A DNA stretch of 64,000 nt from an uncultured Gammaproteobacteria bacterium (GCA_964424195.1 CAYRHT010000003.1:112396-176395); one strand, 5' to 3'; positions 7,338 to 49,549 are shown, counted from the stretch's first letter. Made by a program: numbers and translations. Notes: generated from the sequence alone by a model not told the origin.

Positions 7338-9023
7338 ATGCTTAAAAAACATTATTTAGCAATTTTATTATCTATTGTTATAGCTTTATTAACTTTTTGT
7401 CCTCAATTTTTATCTATTAATTCAATGGAGGATTCTTGGCAAGGAGTTTATCCAATAAATACTGCAGATGACATTTATTATTTAGCTAGAGCACAGGATT
7501 CCCTTGATGGACATATATTTTTATCTAATCCCTATTTATATGAACATAAAGATAGTAGTCCAATGCAATTTTGGTTAGCAGATTATTTCCTGGCTATGCC
7601 AGCTAATTTCTTTAATATTAATGTGGCTGAAGTTTATGCTTTCTATGATCTTTTTTTAGTAATTATTTTAGTTTTACTAACTTATAGCATTCTTTATAAT
7701 CTGAGTAAGAATAAATTATTATCTTTATCTAGTACTACTTTTTTACACCTAGCTTTATTTTTAGATAGATTTGGTAGATCTCCTAGTCCACAATTTAATT
7801 TTATTTTTTGGCTCTTATTAACTTTATTTTTAATTAAATACATAAAGACAAATAAAAAGATTTATATTATTCTTTCGGGATTGTCTTTTGGTTTGCTTTT
7901 CCATCTTTATACTTATTACTGGACATTTTGGTTGTGTTTATTGGGAATTTTATTTTTAGTTAATATTTTCTTGAAAGAAAAGAAAATTAAGGAATATTTT
8001 TATGTTATTTTAATTGGAATACTTATTGGTATTCCTTATTTTATAACGATGTTTCAGAGTCTTAAATTACCATTTTATAATGAATCAATATATAGATTAG
8101 GAATGATTGATACTCATTTTCCTTCTGGATTTAAAATAGTTTCCTCAGCAATTCTGATTTTATTTATTTATTTTGTTCTATGGAAAAAGAAAGTAGTAAA
8201 AAATGATGCATTAACTAGACTTTTATTAATAGGAACTGTATCAACTGTAATTTGCGTTAATCAGCACCTAATAACTGGTAAAAATTTAGAATTTTCCAGT
8301 CATTATTTAGTATTAAGTGTTTTTTGGTTTATATTCTTTTTTACTTATTTATTTAATAAGATATTGCAGAATAAAAAAGATCCTAAAAGAATAGTGACTA
8401 TTCTTTTTATATTAATTTTATCTTTTTCTTTTTTAAATATCAAAAATAAATTTTTATCAGATATTAAAGCTAAGAATTATGAAATAAATTGGCAAAGATA
8501 TGTAAAAATTTTAAATTGGTTAAATGATAATACAAATTTAGATTCTATAGTTTATGCTGATAGTGAAATGAGCAATTTAATTCCAGTTTATACGCATAAT
8601 AATATTTATTATAATAGATTTGCTAATTTATTTTTTATTTCAAACAAGGAATGTCAAGAAAGATTCATCATTAATAATTATTGGGACGAATTTACTGATG
8701 AATATATATTAGATTATCAGAGGTATATTTGGGGGGTTCATTATATTGATGAATATGGGCATAATCAAAGTAAAAATAAAATTAAAAAGATTTTAGGTTT
8801 GGAAATCAATGAAAATGAAATAATTCCAAGAGTTAAAAAGAAAAGCTTTAAAAAATTAAGCGATGAGATTAAAAGTAAGAGTATAGAAGAAAGTCTATTT
8901 AGTTATAAGGTAGATTATTTAATTTGGGACAAAACAAAAAATCCTCATTGGCTTATTGAGGATTTGAAATTTTTAGAAAAGGTTTTTGAATTTAATGATA
9001 TTATAGTGTATAAGATTATTTAA
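7338..9023 (+). CDS. Polytopic membrane protein, possible GT-C-type glycosyltransferase or polymerase
   Basis: About 12 predicted TM helices. Located in the glycan operon. The specific family is not resolved from sequence. Confidence 0.5.
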   Translation: MLKKHYLAILLSIVIALLTFCPQFLSINSMEDSWQGVYPINTADDIYYLARAQDSLDGHIFLSNPYLYEHKDSSPMQFWLADYFLAMPANFFNINVAEVYAFYDLFLVIILVLLTYSILYNLSKNKLLSLSSTTFLHLALFLDRFGRSPSPQFNFIFWLLLTLFLIKYIKTNKKIYIILSGLSFGLLFHLYTYYWTFWLCLLGILFLVNIFLKEKKIKEYFYVILIGILIGIPYFITMFQSLKLPFYNESIYRLGMIDTHFPSGFKIVSSAILILFIYFVLWKKKVVKNDALTRLLLIGTVSTVICVNQHLITGKNLEFSSHYLVLSVFWFIFFFTYLFNKILQNKKDPKRIVTILFILILSFSFLNIKNKFLSDIKAKNYEINWQRYVKILNWLNDNTNLDSIVYADSEMSNLIPVYTHNNIYYNRFANLFFISNKECQERFIINNYWDEFTDEYILDYQRYIWGVHYIDEYGHNQSKNKIKKILGLEINENEIIPRVKKKSFKKLSDEIKSKSIEESLFSYKVDYLIWDKTKNPHWLIEDLKFLEKVFEFNDIIVYKII

Positions 9024-32698: not shown

Positions 32699-33100
32699 TT
32701 AAAAATTTAGATTAAGTGTATAGGCGATTATTAAGCTAAGAATCGAACCATTTATTAGTTCAATGAATATAATTTTATTAGGATAAGAAGTTTGAACCCA
32801 AGTGTCACAGAGACGAGGAACAACTCTAATAATTATTAAAAGCAGTCCTAAATATAATGTATTTAAGGGAGAAATATAATTATAAATGATGATTATACCT
32901 AATATAGGGATAAACCCAGCAATTAGAAGAGTACTTAATAAATATTTTCCTTTTGATGGCCATTTTTTCATGGCAGGATGGTTTTCATATTTTTTGTAAA
33001 TTTTAGCAACAAGAGGATTCATATAAACAACTCCACCAACAATAAACCAAATTATTGTGATAATAATTGCTCTAAGTAATGTTTGAAAAATAATATTCAT
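32699..33100 (-). CDS. Small membrane protein (4 TM)
   Basis: Hydrophobic ORF, third gene of a minus-strand operon. Confidence 0.5.
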   Translation of the reverse strand: MNIIFQTLLRAIIITIIWFIVGGVVYMNPLVAKIYKKYENHPAMKKWPSKGKYLLSTLLIAGFIPILGIIIIYNYISPLNTLYLGLLLIIIRVVPRLCDTWVQTSYPNKIIFIELINGSILSLIIAYTLNLNF

Positions 33101-33110
33101 ATTTTTTTTA

Positions 33111-33509
33111 TTATATTTTATTTAAAAAGGTAATAGTTAGTTGTAAAACAGTAGCAAATGAAACCCAAAGTAGATAAGGGATTTGAATATATGTAATCCA
33201 GTGAGCATGAGGATAGATAACTATCATTGCCCAGATTAAAGTTCCTAGAACTAAAAGAATATCAATAGCTGCTAAGGTGTTGCTTTTTAATCCAAATTGA
33301 AAATATGTAAAAGTAAGATTAAAAAGAAGATTTAGTATAAAAGGAAGAATTATTAAGAAAGGAATCTTTTTTTGAAAAAATAAGAGAAATACTTTTCCAA
33401 AAGAAATAGCTATTAAAATATAAAGTGCTGTCCAAACTGGACCAAAGAGATAGGAAGGTGGTGCCCAAGTTGGTTTAATTAATTGAGAATACCAAGTATA
33501 GTTTTCCAT
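33111..33509 (-). CDS. TspO/MBR-like tryptophan-rich membrane protein (short)
   Basis: N-terminus WYSQLIKPTWAPPSYLFGPVWTALY fits the TspO W..L.KP.W.PP..F.PVW..LY signature. 132 aa. Confidence 0.55.
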   Translation of the reverse strand: MENYTWYSQLIKPTWAPPSYLFGPVWTALYILIAISFGKVFLLFFQKKIPFLIILPFILNLLFNLTFTYFQFGLKSNTLAAIDILLVLGTLIWAMIVIYPHAHWITYIQIPYLLWVSFATVLQLTITFLNKI

Positions 33510-33522
33510 AGTTTTGTTTTTA

Positions 33523-34113
33523 TTATTTATTATTTATTTTTTTACGAATAATTCCTAGAATAAGTAATAATACGGACAAATCAAAAAGGAAAAGATAAAG
33601 AGGATAAGCAACATCAGAGAATACAAAGCTTTTTACTGCAAATAAAGAGAGGAGTCCAGAAAAAGCAGAGAATGACCAAGCAAGATATGTTTCAGATTTA
33701 GGAGATTTAAATGTTTTTATAATAGTTGGTAAACCAAAGAAAAAATCAGCAATGATAGCACAAATAAGGGCAAGGATTGGAAGATTTAATGTTTGCCATA
33801 ATACTAAACCAAGTACTCCTAAACCAAAGAAAATATAATCATAAGTTGAGGTAGACCAAACACCATTCTTTCTAATAATTGAATATATGGCAATAATTAG
33901 GCATGAAAGTGTATTAGCAAATAGTATAGCAACAGTCCATTCACTACCTGATGCTAGCATTGCAAAAGCACCTAAAGCTGTAATAAAAGCCCAACCAATC
34001 CATGATAGAATATGAGGCTGAATTCTATTTCTATGAACACCAATAAGATAAGGTATTCCACCTAATAGAATAAAGATAGCTGAAAGTATTCCAAATATAG
34101 CTTTAGTTTCCAT
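33523..34113 (-). CDS. Small polytopic membrane protein (about 6 TM), possible substrate-capture/transporter component
   Basis: Hydrophobic ORF. First gene of the operon, preceded by a structured leader. Confidence 0.5.
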   Translation of the reverse strand: METKAIFGILSAIFILLGGIPYLIGVHRNRIQPHILSWIGWAFITALGAFAMLASGSEWTVAILFANTLSCLIIAIYSIIRKNGVWSTSTYDYIFFGLGVLGLVLWQTLNLPILALICAIIADFFFGLPTIIKTFKSPKSETYLAWSFSAFSGLLSLFAVKSFVFSDVAYPLYLFLFDLSVLLLILGIIRKKINNK

Positions 34114-34249
34114 GTGTTATATTGTTTTTAATTTTATGGCTCTCTTGGATTGATGAATTTCGAAAGCACTTTACCTCTAATGCTGAGAGAGCATTTATTC
34201 CGAAGTTGATTTAATTTTACTCTCTGGGATAGTTTTAATCAAGAAAGTA

Positions 34250-34278
34250 TTGACTAAACAATACATTTAGAATAAAAT
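34250..34278 (+). promoter_or_regulatory. Conserved promoter module, copy c (TTGACT-N17-TAAAAT), driving 34309..34614
   Basis: TTGACTAAACAATACATTTAGAATAAAAT. The same ~50-nt module recurs at 35171-35216 and 38641-38686. Confidence 0.65.
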
Positions 34279-34308
34279 CAAAATAAATATATTTAGGAGG
34301 AATAGATT

Positions 34309-34614
34309 ATGTTTATAGAATTACCAGGATTACTAGGACTTAAAGAAGGTTATAGAATCTTCTGGATTTTTGATGACGACGAGTACATTTATTTTGATGA
34401 TGGTCAGGGAAATATTTTTCAGATAAAGGAAAATAAGAGTGTTCATAAAGTATTTGTGCCTTGTTTCTTAAGGACTGCTCCTGACTTAGCGGAAAGAAAA
34501 AAATATTTTGTTGATCTTGCCGCTTTTCTCGCAGTTTTTGATGGACTCAAAGTTAGCAAAGCTAAAGAGCATAATAATGCTATTTATGTTGAGCTTCGAA
34601 AAATTAAAAAATAA
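34309..34614 (+). CDS. Hypothetical small protein (101 aa)
   Basis: ORF with AGGAGG RBS 8 nt upstream. Driven by the conserved promoter module. Confidence 0.5.
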   Translation: MFIELPGLLGLKEGYRIFWIFDDDEYIYFDDGQGNIFQIKENKSVHKVFVPCFLRTAPDLAERKKYFVDLAAFLAVFDGLKVSKAKEHNNAIYVELRKIKK

Positions 34615-34636
34615 TAAATCTTCAAAGATTTTATCA

Positions 34637-34666
34637 ATCGGTTCAAATTTCTGAGCCGATTTTTTA
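34637..34666 (+). terminator. Intrinsic terminator
   Basis: ATCGGTTC / GAGCCGAT 8-bp stem (one G.U pair), then a T-run. Confidence 0.6.
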
Positions 34667-34680
34667 TTTTAAAAACTCGA

Positions 34681-34754
34681 TGGCTCGGGGACTAGGAGTC
34701 GAACCTAGATTAACTGGACCAGAACCAGTCGTCCTGCCATTAGACGATCCCCGA
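34681..34754 (-). tRNA. tRNA-Gln (anticodon CTG), CCA encoded
   Basis: Reverse complement TCGGGGATCGTCTAATGGCAGGACGACTGGTTCTGGTCCAGTTAATCTAGGTTCGACTCCTAGTCCCCGAGCCA. Acceptor stem TCGGGGA/TCCCCGA. Anticodon loop TTCTGGT. Confidence 0.85.
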
Positions 34755-34820
34755 ATATTACATAATATATTATAACATTAAATTCAGATAGTAAAGAGTA
34801 TTGATTAAACTTTAATAAAT

Positions 34821-34848
34821 AAAAAAGACAGAGAGAAATTTCTCTGCC
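34821..34848 (-). terminator. Intrinsic terminator for the 34864..35163 gene
   Basis: CAGAGA / TCTCTG stem with U-run on the minus-strand transcript. Confidence 0.5.
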
Positions 34849-34863
34849 TTATAGTTTATTATT

Positions 34864-35163
34864 CTAATCTCTTGGTTCAATCTTTTGTTGGTACTTTTTA
34901 CTATCTTCATCAGATGTGTTTACAATAACATATGGTTCTTCTGTGTCCTCACTGTAATCTTCAACATCATCTGTGAAAAAATAAAAAGTTATTCCTTCTT
35001 CAGATATGAAAATATAAGATTGTCCCATTTTTTTAGAGAGTATTCCATTACAACTACATCCTGCTCCTGAGCTTTTTGGACAAGCCCCTTCTAAACAAGA
35101 AATTTTAACCTTTCCTTTTCCTAACATATCATTAAGTATCGTTAATAACATAATTCCCTCCAT
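34864..35163 (-). CDS. Small Cys-rich, acidic-tailed hypothetical protein (99 aa), paralog of 38313..38624
   Basis: Shares ILNDMLGKGKVKISCLEG / ILDFLKDCDEVKISYLNPEN and the C-terminal KIEP motif with its paralog. Sits behind the conserved promoter module. Confidence 0.5.
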   Translation of the reverse strand: MEGIMLLTILNDMLGKGKVKISCLEGACPKSSGAGCSCNGILSKKMGQSYIFISEEGITFYFFTDDVEDYSEDTEEPYVIVNTSDEDSKKYQQKIEPRD

Positions 35164-35184
35164 AGATTAATTTTATTTGCCTTC

Positions 35185-35213
35185 ATCTTATTCTAAATAT
35201 TTTATTTAGTCAA
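35185..35213 (-). promoter_or_regulatory. Conserved promoter module, copy a (TTGACT-N17-TAAGAT), driving 34864..35163
   Basis: Minus-strand TTGACTAAATAAAATATTTAGAATAAGAT. Module spans 35171-35216. Confidence 0.65.
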
Positions 35214-35269
35214 TTCATTATCTCGTGATACAATAAGGTAAGTTTTAAATATAATATTTATACTTCCCT

Positions 35270-36655
35270 ATGACTTACGGAGACGATTTTACAACTAATT
35301 TCAAACCTAATTATTCTCGAACTAAAAAGAAGCAATCTTTTGGAAGAAAGATTTTTACTATTAGGAAACCTCGAGACTTTGATTTAACTCCAGAAAAAGA
35401 AGCAGTAATCTATACTTTAGAAAATACTAATCAGAATATATTTTTAACTGGTAAAGCGGGGACTGGTAAATCTAACTTCCTTAAATACTTTAGAGCTACT
35501 ACAAACAAGAATATTGTAGTTTTAGCCTTTACTGGTGTAGCTGCTTTAAATGTTCAAGGACAAACTATTCATTCTTTCTTTAAATTTCATCCTCAAACTA
35601 CCATTGATGGTATTTATCGAAAGAAAGATGATGATAATGAGATCTACAAAGAATTAGATTTGATCATTATTGATGAAATTTCAATGGTTAGAGCTGATTT
35701 AATGGACTTTATTGATAAATTCATGCGTTTAAATGGTAAATACCCAGAAGAACCATTTGGTGGTGTTCAAATCTTAGCTATTGGTGATCTGTATCAGATT
35801 CCACCAATTGTTGGTCGGGAAGAAAAGAGGTTCTTTAGTGAATATTATCAAAGTCCATATTTCTTTGATTCTCATTCTTACCAGCAAGCTAATTTTGTTC
35901 AAAAAGAATTAACTGAAATGTATCGTCAGGATCAGAAAGCTCAGAATAAATTCATTAAAACCCTGGATAACTTAAGAACTTGTTCTTTTGATCAAAATGA
36001 TATTGATTTAATTAATACTCGTTTAGAAGTTAATTACCAGAAGCCTAAGGGTAAGTTTGTGATTAGTTTAGTACCAACTAATAGTAAAGCTGAAGAAATT
36101 AATAGTTTTGAATTAGATAAATTAAAAGTTCCGGGACAAGTCTACAAAGGAACTATTTCTGGTAAATTCCCAGAGAAGAATCTTCCGACAGCTAAAAGGT
36201 TAGTTATTAAAAAAGGAGCTCAAGTAATGCTTTTAAATAATGACCCAGAAGGTAAATGGGTTAATGGTGATATTGTGAAGGTGATGAGAACTAGTTATGA
36301 TTATGTGCGAGTTTTGTTTGATGATGGTCGATTAGAAGATATTAGAGCTATTAAGAGAGATTCTATTAGATTTATCTTTGATGAAGAAGCTCAAACAGTT
36401 GAACCAGAGATTATAGGGAGTTTTACTCAATTACCAATTAAATTAGCTTGGGCAGTTACAATTCATAAGGGGCAAGGTAAAACTTTTGATCAGGTTCATT
36501 TAGATTTTGGAACAGGTATTTTTGCTTCTGGGCAAGCCTATGTAGCCCTGAGTCGTTGCAGAACTCTAGAAGGAATGACCTTAACTTCCCCATTAAAGTC
36601 TGATTATATTTTTACTGATAAGAGGATTAGGGAATTTATGAACTCAAATGCTTAA
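35270..36655 (+). CDS. Pif1-family (RecD-like SF1B) DNA helicase
   Basis: Walker A LTGKAGTGKS, Walker B IIDEISMV, the Pif1 motif GGVQILAIGDLYQIPP, and C-terminal TIHKGQG...ALSRCR (UvrD_C_2-like). Confidence 0.85.
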   Translation: MTYGDDFTTNFKPNYSRTKKKQSFGRKIFTIRKPRDFDLTPEKEAVIYTLENTNQNIFLTGKAGTGKSNFLKYFRATTNKNIVVLAFTGVAALNVQGQTIHSFFKFHPQTTIDGIYRKKDDDNEIYKELDLIIIDEISMVRADLMDFIDKFMRLNGKYPEEPFGGVQILAIGDLYQIPPIVGREEKRFFSEYYQSPYFFDSHSYQQANFVQKELTEMYRQDQKAQNKFIKTLDNLRTCSFDQNDIDLINTRLEVNYQKPKGKFVISLVPTNSKAEEINSFELDKLKVPGQVYKGTISGKFPEKNLPTAKRLVIKKGAQVMLLNNDPEGKWVNGDIVKVMRTSYDYVRVLFDDGRLEDIRAIKRDSIRFIFDEEAQTVEPEIIGSFTQLPIKLAWAVTIHKGQGKTFDQVHLDFGTGIFASGQAYVALSRCRTLEGMTLTSPLKSDYIFTDKRIREFMNSNA

Positions 36656-36714
36656 GTGTTGATTAAAGTAGTATTGAGGAGTAGAATTTAGGTATATAAA
36701 TAAGATAAAATGCA

Positions 36715-37203
36715 GTGGATAATAGACAGAAAAAATTTGATGAGATTAAAAATGTTGCTCAGAGAGAATATAGAAAGTTAAATAGTGTATTTAATCCATT
36801 TTTAAGTGAAAAAATAAATTTTAATGCTAAAGGACTAGATCACATAAAAATGAAAGAATGGAATAAAACTCGTCCAATTGGTGATCAATTTCTTAGATTA
36901 AAGTTTCTAGATTTAGCTCCAAAAATTTTAAAATCCACTACTACTCTACAAGAATTTAAAAAGACAAAAAACTTTGAAAGAGTTAGAAGTAACGGTAAAT
37001 GGAATTTTAAAGCAAAATTTGTTGAATATTATGGATTTATTGCTTTGTGGAATTACAAAATTAAAGTAAAAATAATTGTTAAAAGAGTAGAAGGTGGAGA
37101 GCCCTTTTTTTGGAGCATTATTCCTTTTTGGAAAACTAAAAATGATCCTATTCTAAAAACAACAAAAAAAGTCTTCCATGAAGGAGACTTAGAAATAGAT
37201 TAA
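36715..37203 (+). CDS. Hypothetical basic protein (162 aa)
   Basis: ORF between the Pif1 helicase and radical-SAM genes. Lys-rich and Trp-containing. No recognisable family. Confidence 0.45.
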   Translation: MDNRQKKFDEIKNVAQREYRKLNSVFNPFLSEKINFNAKGLDHIKMKEWNKTRPIGDQFLRLKFLDLAPKILKSTTTLQEFKKTKNFERVRSNGKWNFKAKFVEYYGFIALWNYKIKVKIIVKRVEGGEPFFWSIIPFWKTKNDPILKTTKKVFHEGDLEID

Positions 37204-37370
37204 CTTTTTTTGTATGATATTTGTCTGCAGTTTTATGTATTTAACCGCGGGAGAACCAAAGTCCTCACAAACATCATAAATAAACAATAGCATATTTATA
37301 AAAAAAAGCAATAGATAATAAATTTATAAGGCTTCAAACCCTTATTTTTTATTTATGCTACAATTACTCT

Positions 37371-38276
37371 ATGGTTTTAAATATAAAAGTTAAAGAAATA
37401 GAAACTAAGACAGCTTTACATCGTTTAGGTAAGAGAATGTACCCATATAATTATGATTTAAATATATACAGAGGTTGTTCTCATAAATGTGTGTATTGTT
37501 ATGCTTTGTATTCACATAAATACTTTGAAAAACAAGGAGGTTTCTTTGATACTATTTTTGTTAAAAAGAATATATTAGAACCATTAGAAAAGAAATTAAG
37601 TTCTTCTAGGTGGAAGAAAGAAGTTATTAACTTTGGGGGAGTTTGTGATTCATATCAATATATTGAGAAGAAATACAAGTTAATGCCTGAGATCCTTAAA
37701 TTAATGATTAAGTATGAAAATCCGATGATTATATCTACTAAATCTGATTTAATTTTAAGGGATATTGATTTAATAAAGGAGTTAGCTAAAAAGACCTATG
37801 TAAATGTAGCGGAAACTATTACTTGTATGGATGAAGGTTTAAGAAAGAAGATTGAACCTTATGGAGTATCTTCTTTAAGAAGGTTTGAAGTATTAAAGAT
37901 ATTTAGAGAAAAGACTAATGCTGGTATTGGAGTTCATTGTATGCCTATTCTACCTTTTTTAACTGATAATCAAGAGAGTCTAGAAGCTTTAATTAAGAAA
38001 ACTAAAGAAATTAATGCTCATTATATGATAACTTCTGGTTTAAATTTAATTGGAGATACTAAAAAGCATTATTATGACTTTCTAAAAAAAGAATTTCCAG
38101 ATTTAGTTTCTAAATACCATCAATTATTTACTAATACTCAAATTAAAAAAGGATATAATTCTAAATTATACCCTTTAATTAAAAAACTTAAATATAAATA
38201 CAAAGTTTCTTCTGATTACCAGAAAGTTATTAAAGAGAAGTTAAAAGTAAAAGACCAATTGAAGATGTTTGAATAA
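37371..38276 (+). CDS. Radical SAM protein of the SPL/COG1533 (DNA repair photolyase-like) family
   Basis: N-terminal YRGCSHKCVYCYA (CxxxCxxC) matches the COG1533/SplB-type signature. -10 TACAAT at 37353-37358. Confidence 0.8.
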   Translation: MVLNIKVKEIETKTALHRLGKRMYPYNYDLNIYRGCSHKCVYCYALYSHKYFEKQGGFFDTIFVKKNILEPLEKKLSSSRWKKEVINFGGVCDSYQYIEKKYKLMPEILKLMIKYENPMIISTKSDLILRDIDLIKELAKKTYVNVAETITCMDEGLRKKIEPYGVSSLRRFEVLKIFREKTNAGIGVHCMPILPFLTDNQESLEALIKKTKEINAHYMITSGLNLIGDTKKHYYDFLKKEFPDLVSKYHQLFTNTQIKKGYNSKLYPLIKKLKYKYKVSSDYQKVIKEKLKVKDQLKMFE

Positions 38277-38281
38277 AAAAG

Positions 38282-38303
38282 GACTAGCTTAGGACTAGTC
38301 CAT
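38282..38303. terminator. Bidirectional hairpin between convergent genes
   Basis: GGACTAG / CTAGTCC 7-bp stem with A/T runs on both sides. Confidence 0.5.
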
Positions 38304-38312
38304 AAAAACTGA

Positions 38313-38624
38313 TTATTTTGGTTCAATTTTTATTTTAACAATAAGAACTGGGTCTAAAATATCACCTGGTTGAACACCAACAACAATTAGACAATTGTTA
38401 TTTACGTCTAAATATGTAACAGAAATTTTATCGTTGAAAAATGCTTTTATGTCATCCTTCTCTCCGACATGAGTTAAACGACATAGATCATTTATTTCTA
38501 TTAATACAGCTCTATGATTAGAAATAGACGTATCATTTTCTGGATTCAAATAGGAAATTTTAACTTCGTCGCAATCTTTTAAAAAATCCAAAATTTTTCG
38601 GACATCTGCTTGATTAATTTTCAT
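38313..38624 (-). CDS. Small hypothetical protein (103 aa), paralog of 34864..35163
   Basis: See paralog. AGGAGG RBS. Driven by conserved promoter module copy b. Confidence 0.5.
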   Translation of the reverse strand: MKINQADVRKILDFLKDCDEVKISYLNPENDTSISNHRAVLIEINDLCRLTHVGEKDDIKAFFNDKISVTYLDVNNNCLIVVGVQPGDILDPVLIVKIKIEPK

Positions 38625-38654
38625 TTTCCTTCCTCCTAAATTTTATTTACCTTC

Positions 38655-38683
38655 ATCTTATTCTAAATATCTCGTTTAGTCAA
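38655..38683 (-). promoter_or_regulatory. Conserved promoter module, copy b (TTGACT-N17-TAAGAT), driving 38313..38624
   Basis: Minus-strand TTGACTAAACGAGATATTTAGAATAAGAT. Module spans 38641-38686. Confidence 0.65.
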
Positions 38684-38753
38684 TTTAAATACTTCTCTAT
38701 ATTGACTTTTAGAAGAATAGTGTTAATCTGAACTTATAAATTTAGGAGGAAAA

Positions 38754-39095
38754 ATGAAAATAGAATATGTTTTCTTGTTATTAGGATTTATTTTAATTTA
38801 TTACATAATTAAGAATATTAAAGAAGACAAGATTATTTTTGCTTTCTTTATTCCTATTTATGCAATATTTTTATCCTTAGTTCAGTTTTTGGACTGGACT
38901 TTTTTACAGTTAGTAACTGTCTTTATTTCTATATTGGCAATCTGTTTCTCGGGTTTTATTCTCTATTTAAGTATGAGAATAATTTTCTGGAGAGAAGAAG
39001 AAGCTAAAGAGAATCTAGGAATAATATTGTTAATTAATTCTTTAATATCAATTTATGAAGCTGCTTGTGGTCTAATTCCCATTGTAATTCTTTAG
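38754..39095 (+). CDS. Small membrane protein (3 TM)
   Basis: Hydrophobic ORF with AGGAGG RBS. Confidence 0.45.
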   Translation: MKIEYVFLLLGFILIYYIIKNIKEDKIIFAFFIPIYAIFLSLVQFLDWTFLQLVTVFISILAICFSGFILYLSMRIIFWREEEAKENLGIILLINSLISIYEAACGLIPIVIL

Positions 39096-39151
39096 TTAAC
39101 AGTATTGTCTTAGGATAGTACTGTTTTTTTATTCTATGTTATAATATTCAT

Positions 39152-39622
39152 ATGATTCAAGCTACAACTTGCTTATTAAGAAGAGAAGGAGAAATTTTAC
39201 TTGCTATGAAAAAGCGAGGCTTTGGAGTTGGTAAATGGAACGGTGTTGGTGGTAAGCAAGATGATAATGAGGGTATTGATGAAACTGCTGTACGAGAGGT
39301 TGAAGAGGAAATTAAAGTAAAAATTAATCCTCAAGACTTGGAAAAAGTAGCTACTTTAAAATTCTATTTCCCTTACAAACCAGAGTGGCATATGGAAGTT
39401 CATTTCTATTTCTGCTATAAATGGAAAGGAGAACCAGAAGAAACAGAAGAAATGAGGCCTAAGTGGTTTGATTTAAATAAACTTCCTTATGAAAAAATGT
39501 GGAGTGATGATATTTATTGGCTTCCTAGAGTTTTGAAAGGTGAAAAGCTAGAAGGAGAATTGTATTTTAATGAAGATAATAACACCTTAAATCCAGATAA
39601 AATAACTATAAGAAAAATATGA
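39152..39622 (+). CDS. NUDIX hydrolase (MutT-like)
   Basis: Nudix box GKWNGVGGKQDDNEGIDETAVREVEEEIKV (Gx5Ex7REUxEExGU). Confidence 0.85.
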   Translation: MIQATTCLLRREGEILLAMKKRGFGVGKWNGVGGKQDDNEGIDETAVREVEEEIKVKINPQDLEKVATLKFYFPYKPEWHMEVHFYFCYKWKGEPEETEEMRPKWFDLNKLPYEKMWSDDIYWLPRVLKGEKLEGELYFNEDNNTLNPDKITIRKI

Positions 39623-40389
39623 TAGAAATTGAATCAAAAGATAATTCAAAGATTAAACATCTAAGAAAGTTAAGTAATAAGAAATATCGGAATGAATATT
39701 CTGAGTTTTTAGTTGAGAACTTTGTGACTATTAAAGATGCTTTTCAAGATGGTTTTAAATTTAAACAACTCTTTCTAAGTTCTAAATTCTTAGAGAAAAA
39801 CAAAGCAGAAATTGAAAATATGTTAGTAGAGGAGACTTACTTAATTGATGAACGAATAAATGAAAGTTTTTCTAATCTAGACACTGCTTCTGGTATTTGT
39901 GCTATATATGACAAATTAGAAACTAAAATTGATTTTGAAAAACCAATCATCTATCTCAATGCTCTTAATGATCCTGGTAATCTAGGTACAATCTTACGAT
40001 CAGCTCTAGCTTTTGAATTAAAAAATATAGTTTGTGATGAACATTGTGTGGATTTGTATAATCCTAAGGTAATTAGTGCTTCTAAAGATGCTATTTTTAA
40101 ACTAAATATTAAAGTTGATCAAAACTTAGAATTATTAAAAGAAATAAAAAAGAAGATGAAAGTTTTTTCTACTAGATTAGAAGAATCTAGTAATTTAAGT
40201 ACTTTAGAGAAAGAAAAGAAGTTTTGTTTAATTCTAGGTAATGAGTCTCATGGAGTATCTCAAGAGCTACAAGACTTGTCAGATGGTCATATAAAGATTA
40301 AGATGAATGCAGAAATAGAATCTTTAAATGTAGCTAACTCAGCAGCAATTATATTTCATTATATTTACAATACCCTTCAGGGTAAATAA
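39619..40389 (+). CDS. SpoU/TrmH-family RNA 2'-O-methyltransferase (RlmB-like)
   Basis: SPOUT motifs LNDPGNLGTILRSALAF, LILGNESHGVS, LNVANSAAII. Confidence 0.85.
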   Translation: MIEIESKDNSKIKHLRKLSNKKYRNEYSEFLVENFVTIKDAFQDGFKFKQLFLSSKFLEKNKAEIENMLVEETYLIDERINESFSNLDTASGICAIYDKLETKIDFEKPIIYLNALNDPGNLGTILRSALAFELKNIVCDEHCVDLYNPKVISASKDAIFKLNIKVDQNLELLKEIKKKMKVFSTRLEESSNLSTLEKEKKFCLILGNESHGVSQELQDLSDGHIKIKMNAEIESLNVANSAAIIFHYIYNTLQGK

Positions 40390-42088: not shown

Positions 42089-42215
42089 TTTTCCTCCTGT
42101 TTTTTTGTTTGATTATATAAATTACTCTAAATATTACAACTTGTCAAGATATTTAATTTGACACGATATAGTAAATAATCTAAAGTAAAATAAATTAAAT
42201 AAAAAAGGAGGATTT

Positions 42216-47100: not shown

Positions 47101-47129
47101 TTGACATTATTCATAATGTGTGATATATT
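47101..47129 (+). promoter_or_regulatory. Sigma70-type promoter TTGACA-N17-TATATT. Shares 25 nt with the promoter at 49521.
   Basis: TTGACATTATTCATAAT is identical at 47101 and 49521, each directly after a terminator and upstream of a T9SS-CTD gene. Confidence 0.6.
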
Positions 47130-49520: not shown

Positions 49521-49549
49521 TTGACATTATTCATAATTCATGATAATTT
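49521..49549 (+). promoter_or_regulatory. Sigma70-type promoter TTGACA-N17-TAATTT (duplicate of the one at 47101)
   Basis: See 47101 promoter. Confidence 0.55.

What the first reader, a model, noticed from the sequence alone, without database searches (positions are those of the whole stretch)
34250..38686. Triplicated ~50-nt promoter/leader module driving three small proteins that bracket tRNA-Gln and a Pif1/radical-SAM cassette
The same module occurs three times: at 34250-34300 (+), 35171-35216 (-) and 38641-38686 (-). Its form is TTGACTAAA-yrAkAyATTTAGAATAA-rAT...AAATAAAAT: -35 TTGACT, an exactly 17-nt spacer whose 3' half ATTTAGAA is invariant, -10 TAARAT and a conserved leader. Each copy sits directly upstream of a 99-103 aa ORF. 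Two of these ORFs (34864..35163 and 38313..38624) are recognisable paralogs (ILNDMLGKGKVKISCLEG vs ILDFLKDCDEVKISYLNPEN; C-terminal KIEP). Conservation extends beyond what a sigma70 promoter needs. That suggests a dedicated operator and a small regulon, or a recently duplicated module. Copies a and b are direct repeats 3.4 kb apart and flank the Pif1-helicase / 162-aa unknown / SPL-type radical-SAM cassette. Copies c and a flank tRNA-Gln in inverted orientation. That geometry resembles a tRNA-associated accessory island, although no integrase is present.
Basis: seen in the sequence. Interest (0 to 1): 0.7.

Follow-up and report, generated by a model that had tools for sequence, protein, structure and literature searches.

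The report
Three-copy promoter module before orphan genes
A small uncultured bacterium (Patescibacteria) carries three copies of one unusually well conserved promoter within 4.4 kb, each driving a different ~100-residue protein found in no other organism; it is a real, modestly interesting case of promoter re-use or co-regulation, not a mobile island.

Summary
TTGACTAAA-N7-TTTAGAATAA occurs exactly three times (34250+, 35213-, 38683-) and nowhere else within 3 mismatches in about 84 kb of this genome. Each copy reads as a sigma-70-type promoter (TTGACT, 17 nt, TAARAT), followed by a short unstructured A-rich leader, a GGAGG ribosome-binding site, a 95-103 aa ORF with host-like codon usage, and an intrinsic terminator.

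The three proteins are species-restricted orphans. The claimed paralogy of two of them is not statistically supported.

The module is not the genome's generic promoter. The two conserved blocks are 19/19 identical between copies, while the 7 nt between them and both flanks are randomised. A relative whose Pif1 is 74% identical (L033) keeps the same blocks at the orthologous position. That argues for selection beyond the two hexamers. The cause is probably an operator (dyad CTAAA-N7-TTTAG) or a second overlapping promoter, but no factor was found.

The island reading fails. tRNA-Gln and Pif1 are syntenic core genes in relatives, and there is no att repeat, integrase or composition shift. The slots around them are, however, hypervariable.

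The closest known concept is propagated ("putative mobile") promoters. Interest is modest.

The parts
34249..34295 (+). Module copy c: -35 TTGACT (34250-34255), spacer AAACAATACATTTAGAA, -10 TAAAAT (34273-34278), A-rich leader; the dyad CTAAA-N7-TTTAG lies at 34254-34270
34309..34614 (+). P_c, a 101-aa orphan ORF preceded by AGGAGG; in-frame codon score 0.34, against a genome mean of 0.35
34636..34661 (+). Intrinsic terminator of P_c
34681..34754 (-). tRNA-Gln(CTG). A conserved anchor that sits next to Pif1 in relatives; context, not part of the module
34825..34850 (-). Intrinsic terminator of P_a
34864..35163 (-). P_a, an orphan ORF: 99 aa from the first ATG, more likely 95 aa from the ATG at 35151, which follows the GGAGG ribosome-binding site. 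Acidic (pI 4.5), 4 Cys
35169..35215 (-). Module copy a: -35 TTGACT (35213-35208), -10 TAAGAT (35190-35185), leader GAAGGCAAATAAAAT. Divergent from Pif1
35270..36655 (+). Pif1-family helicase. A syntenic core gene (context); its own upstream region AATAAGGTAAGTTTTAAATATAAT matches the Pif1 upstream region of relatives by eye
38281..38301 (-). Intrinsic terminator of P_b
38313..38624 (-). P_b, a 103-aa orphan ORF preceded by AGGAGG; pI 5.0
38639..38685 (-). Module copy b: -35 TTGACT (38683-38678), -10 TAAGAT (38660-38655), leader GAAGGTAAATAAAAT. 91% identical to copy a over 47 nt
42119..42147 (-). Weakly related promoter TTGACA-AGTTGTAATATTTAGAG-TAATTT (4 mismatches), upstream of a 195-aa ORF. 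It shares ATATTTAGA at the same spacer position

Best explanation
The module is one sigma-70-type promoter (TTGACT, 17 nt, TAARAT) with a short unstructured A-rich 5' leader. It has been propagated locally to three intergenic slots around the conserved tRNA-Gln, Pif1 and NUDIX backbone of a marine Patescibacteria genome. Each copy drives a separate monocistronic unit: ribosome-binding site, a roughly 100-aa species-specific protein, then a terminator. The three otherwise unrelated orphan genes therefore share one transcription signal.

Shown:
- Three exact copies, with sharp module boundaries.
- The ORFs look like real coding genes.
- The proteins are orphans.
- The same blocks are conserved in one relative.
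- The leader has no RNA structure.

Inferred:
- The spacer bases held constant (AAA after the -35 and ATTTAGAA before the -10, which together form the dyad CTAAA-N7-TTTAG) are contacted by a sequence-specific protein in addition to the sigma hexamers.
- That protein is most likely a dimeric repressor. Its operator overlaps the core promoter, so all three genes would switch together.
- Copies a and b also share recent ancestry (14/15 leader bases), so duplication of the promoter itself is part of the history.
For: - Three perfect 19/19 matches and none within 3 mismatches elsewhere in 64 kb, and none within 2 mismatches in 20 kb of added flank, where the nearest site has 3.
- Hexamers and 17-nt spacing.
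- Block identity is 9/9 and 10/10 in all within-genome pairs, against 4/7 in the centre, 7-18/40 upstream and 5-7/16 downstream.
- The L033 relative (Pif1 74% identical) keeps TTGACTAAA-N7-TTTAatATAAGAT plus AAATAAAA in front of a small ORF divergent from Pif1. Everything else between tRNA-Gln and Pif1 there is unalignable.
- Other strong promoters in the window have unrelated spacers.
- Ribosome-binding sites and terminators flank each ORF.
- In-frame codon scores of 0.24-0.34 compare with a genome mean of 0.35 and with -0.6 to -1.6 out of frame.
- The coding regions are not detectably homologous.
- No leader structure and no Rfam match.
Against: - No candidate regulator was identified. No DNA-binding domain was recorded in the genes from about 28.3 to 48.6 kb.
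- The dyad arms are only 5 bp and AT-rich, so the symmetry alone could be chance.
- The L033 site changes TTTAG to TTTAA while keeping CTAAA, which weakens the dyad.
- There are only four sites in total.
- The conserved blocks can also be read as hexamers of two overlapping promoters.
- Only about 84 kb of roughly 950 kb was searched, so 'local' is not proven.
- No expression data are available.
- All sampled copies of the genome are 100% identical, so there is no polymorphism test.
Confidence: 0.5

Rival explanations
1. Two overlapping sigma-70 promoters and no dedicated regulator. P1 is TTGACT-17-TAARAT. P2 is TTTAGA-16-TAAAAT (TATATT in copy c). The conserved 'spacer' and 'leader' blocks would then simply be the hexamers of the second promoter.
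For: - The consensus scan lists both P1 and P2 for all three copies: 35213/35197, 38683/38667 and 34250/34266.
- L033 keeps TTTAAT and a downstream TAAAAA.
- This reading explains why AAATAAAAT is conserved without any RNA structure.
Against: - TTTAGA is a poor -35 (4/6).
- The invariant AAA after TTGACT and the A before TTTAGA remain unexplained.
- A-rich leaders such as AAATAAA also follow unrelated promoters in the window, so the leader match may be generic.
- Promoter-like hits are not enriched over shuffles in this AT-rich DNA (95 found against 87.7 expected).
Confidence: 0.2
2. A neutral remnant of recent duplication. A promoter-plus-gene unit was copied three times, and the similarity is only what has not yet decayed.
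For: - Copies a and b are 91% identical over 47 nt, including 14/15 leader bases.
- Other duplicated promoters exist in this genome (47101/49521) and in relative L031.
- P_a and P_b show a marginal global collinearity (p=0.02).
Against: - The differences are not spread evenly. The centre and the flanks are at background identity while 19 positions are 100% identical in all pairs.
- The ORFs have no detectable similarity.
- The blocks survive in L033, where neutral intergenic DNA is fully randomised.
Confidence: 0.1
3. A promoter for an alternative sigma factor, for example a sigma-H/ComX-like factor that recognises a GAAT-containing -10 (TTTAGAATAA resembles TACGAATA). The extended blocks would be its -35 and -10 elements.
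For: - The motif is bipartite, with long invariant blocks separated by a free centre.
- AGAATA lies inside block 2.
- The comparison with sigma-H/ComX boxes comes from my own knowledge and was not tested.
Against: - Block 1 is a near-consensus sigma-70 -35, 17 nt from a TAnnnT hexamer.
- No AGGA-type -35 is present.
- No alternative sigma gene was seen near the locus. One Sigma70_r4 protein lies about 12 kb beyond the window end.
Confidence: 0.07
4. A tRNA-Gln-associated accessory island whose ends are marked by the module repeats, with Pif1, the 162-aa protein and the radical SAM protein as cargo.
For: - Repeats a and b flank Pif1, the 162-aa ORF and the radical SAM gene.
- The 162-aa and radical SAM genes are absent from relatives L031, L033, L038 and L042.
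- The locus differs in every relative.
- L031 carries a 13-nt copy of the tRNA 3' end 85 nt beyond the tRNA.
Against: - Pif1 sits next to tRNA-Gln in all relatives where both flanks were seen, so it is core.
- There is no tRNA-end direct repeat in the window.
- No integrase or recombinase domain was recorded from about 28.3 to 48.6 kb.
- GC and codon usage are host-like.
- The repeats are promoters, each with its own gene, not att sites.
Confidence: 0.04
5. A conserved cis-regulatory RNA leader (riboswitch, attenuator or sRNA target) shared by the three mRNAs.
For: Conservation extends about 15 nt past the -10 in copies a and b.
Against: - The leaders fold at 0 kcal/mol for a and b. Copy c reaches only -5.2 kcal/mol with z=-1.7.
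- No Rfam hit at E<=1.
- The transcribed conserved part is about 10 nt and A-rich, like other leaders in the window.
Confidence: 0.02

Closest known systems
Putative mobile promoters / promoter propagation (Matus-Garcia, Nijveen & van Passel 2012, PMC3488235)
   Same: Highly similar upstream sequences of roughly 50 nt sit within one genome in front of non-homologous genes, with no IS, MITE or riboswitch signature.
   Different: - The family has only three copies, all within 4.4 kb.
- The lengths (46-52 nt) and identities (77-91%) sit at the lower edge of that study's 50-100 nt, >=80% criterion.
- The conservation is patterned: two invariant blocks around a free centre. It is also retained in a distant relative, which points to selection rather than only recent mobilisation.
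Dyad operators embedded between or over the -35 and -10 elements (for example LexA/SOS boxes, phage cI/Cro-type or Xre-type operators); from my own knowledge
   Same: An inverted repeat (CTAAA-N7-TTTAG) overlaps the core promoter. The half-sites are invariant, the centre is free, and several promoters share it.
   Different: - No cognate regulator was found.
- The arms are short.
- The sequence matches no operator consensus I know.
- The genes driven are orphans, not the adjacent DNA-repair-type genes.
Families of repeated strong early promoters in phages and mobile elements that drive small orphan genes; from my own knowledge
   Same: Near-consensus sigma-70 promoters with extra shared bases, each in front of a short, acidic protein without homologs.
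   Different: - No phage or mobile-element gene lies nearby.
- The small ORFs have no PHROG hit, and the motif is absent from IMG/VR.
- The backbone is chromosomal and syntenic.
tRNA-linked genomic islands
   Same: Variable gene content next to a tRNA gene.
   Different: No integrase, no att duplication, no compositional shift, and the supposed cargo gene Pif1 is core.

Membership tests
Putative mobile promoter (PMP) family | Two or more upstream regions in one genome, 50-100 nt long with at least 80% identity | tested here: inconclusive
   a/b 47 nt at 91%; c/b 46 nt at 80%; c/a 52 nt at 77%. These fall at or just under the published thresholds (PMC3488235 abstract).
Putative mobile promoter (PMP) family | The downstream genes are not homologous | tested here: met
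   BLASTP finds no alignment for P_a/P_b and E=3 for P_c/P_b. Smith-Waterman local scores are not significant for any pair among P_a, P_b and P_c.
Putative mobile promoter (PMP) family | Not part of an IS, a MITE or a riboswitch | tested here: met
   No Rfam hit. No further repeats around the copies. No transposase among the genes called from about 28.3 to 48.6 kb.
Sigma-70 (housekeeping) promoter | -35 and -10 hexamers with a 17 +/- 1 nt spacer, correctly placed upstream of a gene | tested here: met
   TTGACT-17-TAAAAT/TAAGAT, 31-36 nt upstream of the start codons.
Sigma-70 (housekeeping) promoter | A mapped transcription start | not testable with these tools
   No expression data are available.
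Transcription-factor operator / regulon | Dyad or direct-repeat symmetry with conserved half-sites and a free centre | tested here: met
   CTAAA-N7-TTTAG is perfect in all three copies, and these are the only perfect sites in the window. The centre is 4/7 identical. The arms are short, however, and the L033 site reads TTTAA.
Transcription-factor operator / regulon | A cognate DNA-binding protein is identified | tested here: not met
   No DNA-binding domain in the neighbouring products. The three small proteins have no family hits, and the AlphaFold models of P_a and P_b are unusable (pLDDT 49 and 46).
Transcription-factor operator / regulon | Further sites elsewhere in the genome, upstream of co-regulated genes | not testable with these tools
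   Only about 84 kb of the 952-kb contig was accessible. The source genome is absent from the scannable collections.
tRNA-linked genomic island | An integrase or recombinase next to the tRNA | tested here: not met
   None among the genes called from about 28.3 to 48.6 kb. The nearest rve-domain gene lies about 12 kb beyond the window end.
tRNA-linked genomic island | A direct repeat of the tRNA 3' end at the far border | tested here: not met
   No second match to the tRNA 3' end within 2-3 mismatches.
tRNA-linked genomic island | The cargo is absent from related genomes and compositionally distinct | tested here: not met
   Pif1 is present next to tRNA-Gln in L031, L033, L038 and L042. GC, GC3 and codon score are host-like. 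Only the 162-aa and radical SAM genes and the small ORFs are variable.
cis-regulatory leader RNA | A stable or conserved secondary structure, or an Rfam match | tested here: not met
   Minimum free energy is 0 kcal/mol for leaders a and b. No Rfam match at E<=1.

The most novel reading that the evidence does not exclude
The module is a fixed 'expression socket' of this Patescibacteria lineage. It would be an operator-bearing promoter recognised by an unknown lineage-specific regulator (or dedicated sigma factor), and it would be older than the genes it drives. Fast-evolving or newly born small proteins, for example host-interaction or anti-defence effectors, would be swapped in behind it in hypervariable slots beside DNA-repair genes, all switching on together.
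Probability: 0.15. Interest if true: 0.6.

Novelty: new member of a known kind. Interest (0 to 1): 0.3.

Why it matters
Almost nothing is known about transcription signals or regulators in Patescibacteria, and their genomes are full of small proteins without homologs. A promoter held under tighter constraint than the proteins behind it gives three things: a concrete, testable handle on co-regulation of such orphan genes; a candidate operator to fish for a regulator; and a strong native promoter that could be useful for genetics in these organisms. If it is only promoter re-use, it is one more example of a documented phenomenon.

Tried and rejected
- Genome-wide regulon test. Exact-pattern scans found only scattered single hits in unrelated taxa: 9 in genome contigs, 16 in metagenome contigs and 0 in viral contigs. 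The source genome is not in those collections, so the test could not be done.
- Homolog searches for the three small proteins returned only themselves. The one extra hit for P_a (P0124, E=1.1e-4, five matched stretches in a 506-aa protein) I judged a composition artefact, without checking it.
- Pfam, PHROGs, PADLOC, NCBIfam and PDB sequence searches gave nothing significant.
- AlphaFold2 single-sequence models of P_b and P_a had pLDDT 46 and 49. I ran no fold search because the matches would be meaningless.
- Paralogy of P_a and P_b: not supported by BLASTP or by Smith-Waterman against shuffles.
- Leader RNA: rejected.
- SOS/LexA idea. It was prompted by Pif1, the PA0069-family radical SAM protein, NUDIX, and a perfect motif match upstream of ssb in a Paceibacterota MAG (L002). 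I rejected it for three reasons: the modules drive the orphan ORFs, not the repair genes; the L002 hit is compatible with chance (9 hits in 596 Gb); and the literature describes the Patescibacteria LexA motif as of direct-repeat type (PMC7739468).
- Strain polymorphism test. All sampled copies are 100% identical over 11-20 kb, so no dN/dS or site-variation test was possible.
- The 162-aa protein has no relatives in IMG/VR.
- More distant Pif1 relatives (L034, L036, L037) are not syntenic and lack the motif.
Full report
**What is there**

The 26-nt pattern TTGACTAAA-N7-TTTAGAATAA occurs three times with no mismatch, at 34250 (+), 35213 (-) and 38683 (-). No other site in the 64-kb window comes within three mismatches. 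At the window's base composition I expect about 2.5e-5 perfect matches, so chance is excluded. A repeat search over 33000-40000 ranks these copies first: a/b 47 nt at 91%, c/a 52 nt at 77%, c/b 46 nt at 80%.

Each copy reads as a sigma-70-type promoter: TTGACT, a 17-nt spacer, then TAAAAT or TAAGAT. About 30 nt of A-rich leader follow, then GGAGG and a start codon. The ORFs are 34309..34614 (101 aa), 34864..35163 (99 aa) and 38313..38624 (103 aa). For the second ORF the ATG at 35151 is the one preceded by GGAGG, giving 95 aa, which is also what some gene callers chose. Each ORF ends at a predicted intrinsic terminator. These are therefore three self-contained monocistronic units.

**Are the ORFs genes, and what are they?**

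- Their in-frame codon-usage scores (0.24-0.34) match the mean of 22 long genes of the window (0.35). The out-of-frame scores are -0.6 to -1.6, and GC and GC3 are host-like.
- All three are orphans. The indexed search of 5.8 billion proteins returned only self-hits for P_b and P_c.
- An exhaustive HMMER pass over 1.84 billion representatives returned only P_a itself, plus one weak hit that I read as a composition artefact.
- Pfam, PHROGs, PADLOC, NCBIfam and PDB sequence searches were empty.
- AlphaFold2 without an alignment gave pLDDT 46 and 49, which is too poor for fold searches.
BLASTP finds nothing, the Smith-Waterman local score is ordinary (p=0.755), and only the global score is marginal (p=0.02).

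**Organism and context**

The window is identical to part of a 952-kb metagenomic contig (JGI 3300022916). The same DNA occurs at 100% identity in several other samples. Close Pif1 homologs carry Patescibacteria names such as Magasanikbacteria, Kaiserbacteria and Pacebacteria. I could not place the organism more precisely than Patescibacteria.

Syntenic relatives were recovered through Pif1: L031/L032 (76% identity), L033 (74%), L038 (78%), L039 (77%) and L042-L044.

- In L031/L032, L033 and L042-L044, Pif1 sits on a shared backbone that runs DnaX ... Pif1 ... (NUDIX) ... SpoU. The short contigs L038 and L039 cover only part of it.
- tRNA-Gln(CTG) lies immediately beside Pif1 in L031, L033, L038 and L042.
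- Everything between and around these anchors differs between genomes and cannot be aligned.
- The 162-aa ORF and the radical SAM gene (Rv2578c/PA0069 family) are absent from the relatives.
- Even two genomes whose Pif1 proteins share at least 90% identity (L031 and L042) have different neighbours and opposite tRNA orientation.

The locus is therefore a hotspot of gene turnover, but Pif1 and the tRNA are core genes. There is no second copy of the tRNA 3' end, no integrase domain among the genes called from about 28.3 to 48.6 kb, and no compositional anomaly. The island interpretation fails.

**Is it just the generic promoter?**

No. Other well-formed TTGAC-17-TAnnnT promoters upstream of genes in the window have unrelated spacers. 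Adding 10 kb on either side of the window revealed no further copy. Only the promoter at 42147 (-) shares ATATTTAGA at the same spacer position, and it differs at 4 positions.

**Pattern of conservation**

With the copies anchored on TTGACT, pairwise identity runs as follows:

| Region | Identity between copies |
|---|---|
| Block 1 (TTGACTAAA) | 9/9 |
| Block 2 (TTTAGAATAA) | 10/10 |
| Seven central bases | 4/7 |
| 40 nt upstream | 7-18/40 |
| Beyond position 44 | 5-7/16 |

Copies a and b also share 14/15 bases of the discriminator and leader. Copy c shares 9-10/15.

In L033 a small ORF of 116 aa lies divergent from Pif1, as P_a does here. Its C-terminal similarity to P_a is weak (E=0.005). 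It is preceded by TTGACTAAA-ATTTATC-TTTAATATAAGAT...AAATAAAA: block 1 is 9/9, block 2 is 8/10, and the centre is 2/7. Neutral intergenic DNA between these genomes is fully randomised, so this is a phylogenetic footprint. The blocks are under purifying selection, and more strongly than the protein they drive.

**Mechanism**

The two blocks include the -35 hexamer and part of the -10 hexamer, plus about 8 further bases: AAA after the -35 and ATTTAGAA before the -10. Together these form the dyad CTAAA-N7-TTTAG, which is perfect only at these three sites in the window.

My preferred reading is a housekeeping promoter with an embedded operator for an unidentified dimeric regulator, giving the three orphan genes a common switch. 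The near-identity of a and b shows that promoter duplication also contributed.

The main rival is that the extra blocks are the hexamers of a second, overlapping promoter: TTTAGA-16-TAAAAT, which the scan lists for all three copies. I cannot separate these two readings without transcription start data.

The other readings are disfavoured by specific tests:
- Leader RNA. The leaders of a and b do not fold at all, that of c folds only weakly (-5.2 kcal/mol, z=-1.7), and there is no Rfam hit.
- Neutral duplication. The differences are patterned rather than spread at random.
- Mobile island. See the context section above.

**Comparison with known things**

The closest described phenomenon is promoter propagation, the 'putative mobile promoters' of PMC3488235: similar upstream sequences of 50-100 nt and at least 80% identity in front of non-homologous genes. 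This family sits at the lower edge of those thresholds, and it differs by being tiny, local and patterned.

Re-use of promoters seems to be a habit of this lineage. The window has a second duplicated promoter at 47101 and 49521. Relative L031 has its own, unrelated module of about 55 nt, duplicated on either side of Pif1.

**Limits**

- Only about 84 kb of the genome could be examined.
- No expression data or polymorphism data exist for it.
- No regulator was found.
- The small proteins remain without any functional clue.

**Verdict**

This is a real, non-random, selectively maintained promoter module that is re-used three times for orphan genes in a hypervariable chromosomal neighbourhood. 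It is a new member of a known kind and of modest interest.

Noticed in passing
window 47101-47129 and 49521-49549 (+): A second duplicated promoter. TTGACATTATTCATAAT (17 nt identical), then TGAT, each copy preceded by a T-run. One sits upstream of a 735-aa beta-helix/Por_Secre_tail protein and the other upstream of a 266-aa ORF, so promoter re-use is not unique to the reported module.
   Followed up: partly
L031 7792-7860 and 9403-9470 (+): The relative with 76% Pif1 identity has its own, unrelated promoter/ribosome-binding-site module of about 55 nt (ATTGACAAAAT..TTAAT.AGATTAATATAATA.TAATAATTA), present as direct repeats on either side of Pif1. The first copy has no intact ORF behind it. The second drives a 108-aa membrane-like protein.
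   Followed up: partly
L031 about 7434-7446: A 13-nt copy of the tRNA-Gln 3' end (ATGGCTCGGGGAC, the allele seen in the window) lies about 85 nt beyond the intact tRNA-Gln. It could be a scar of an integration or replacement event at this tRNA.
   Followed up: no
L031 9865-10070 (-): A GC-rich non-coding stretch of about 190 nt between the 108-aa ORF and NUDIX. It folds strongly (-65.7 kcal/mol, z=-4.6) and ends in an intrinsic terminator, with no Rfam match. It may be an unclassified small RNA, and it is absent from the window.
   Followed up: partly
L002 1588-1613 (-), Candidatus Paceibacterota MAG JAVHOD010000006.1: A perfect 19/19 match to the motif plus the following GAT, lying between rpsF and ssb. 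It was one of only 9 hits in 596 Gb and is the only one in Patescibacteria. It is probably chance, but it is the sole hint that the motif might exist outside this lineage.
   Followed up: partly
window 35151 versus 35163 (-): The P_a start codon is probably the second ATG (35151, 95 aa). The GGAGG ribosome-binding site overlaps the first ATG and lies 4 nt upstream of the second.
   Followed up: yes
window 42119-42186: Back-to-back divergent promoters whose -35 hexamers lie a few nucleotides apart: 42147 (-) for a 195-aa ORF and 42158 (+) for a 189-aa ORF. The minus-strand promoter shares ATATTTAGA with the module at the same spacer position, and its counterpart in L033 (4971, -) keeps AATATTTA.
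   Followed up: partly
L042 3803-3876 and L038 181-253, compared with window 34681-34754: tRNA-Gln is co-oriented with Pif1, with no gene in between, in L038 and L042. It is inverted, with an inserted small gene or remnant, in the window, L033 and L031. L042 and L031 differ in this way although their Pif1 proteins are at least 90% identical.
   Followed up: partly
L036 1-8235: A 69%-identical Pif1 homolog in another Patescibacteria-like MAG sits directly after type I restriction-modification genes and a Shedu (SduA) gene, which is a defence-island context.
   Followed up: no
L041 11744-13867 (about 12 kb beyond the window end): An rve-family integrase/transposase gene followed by a 386-aa protein with a Sigma70_r4 domain, and further on a form III-like RuBisCO with an IF-2B-family isomerase.
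   Followed up: no
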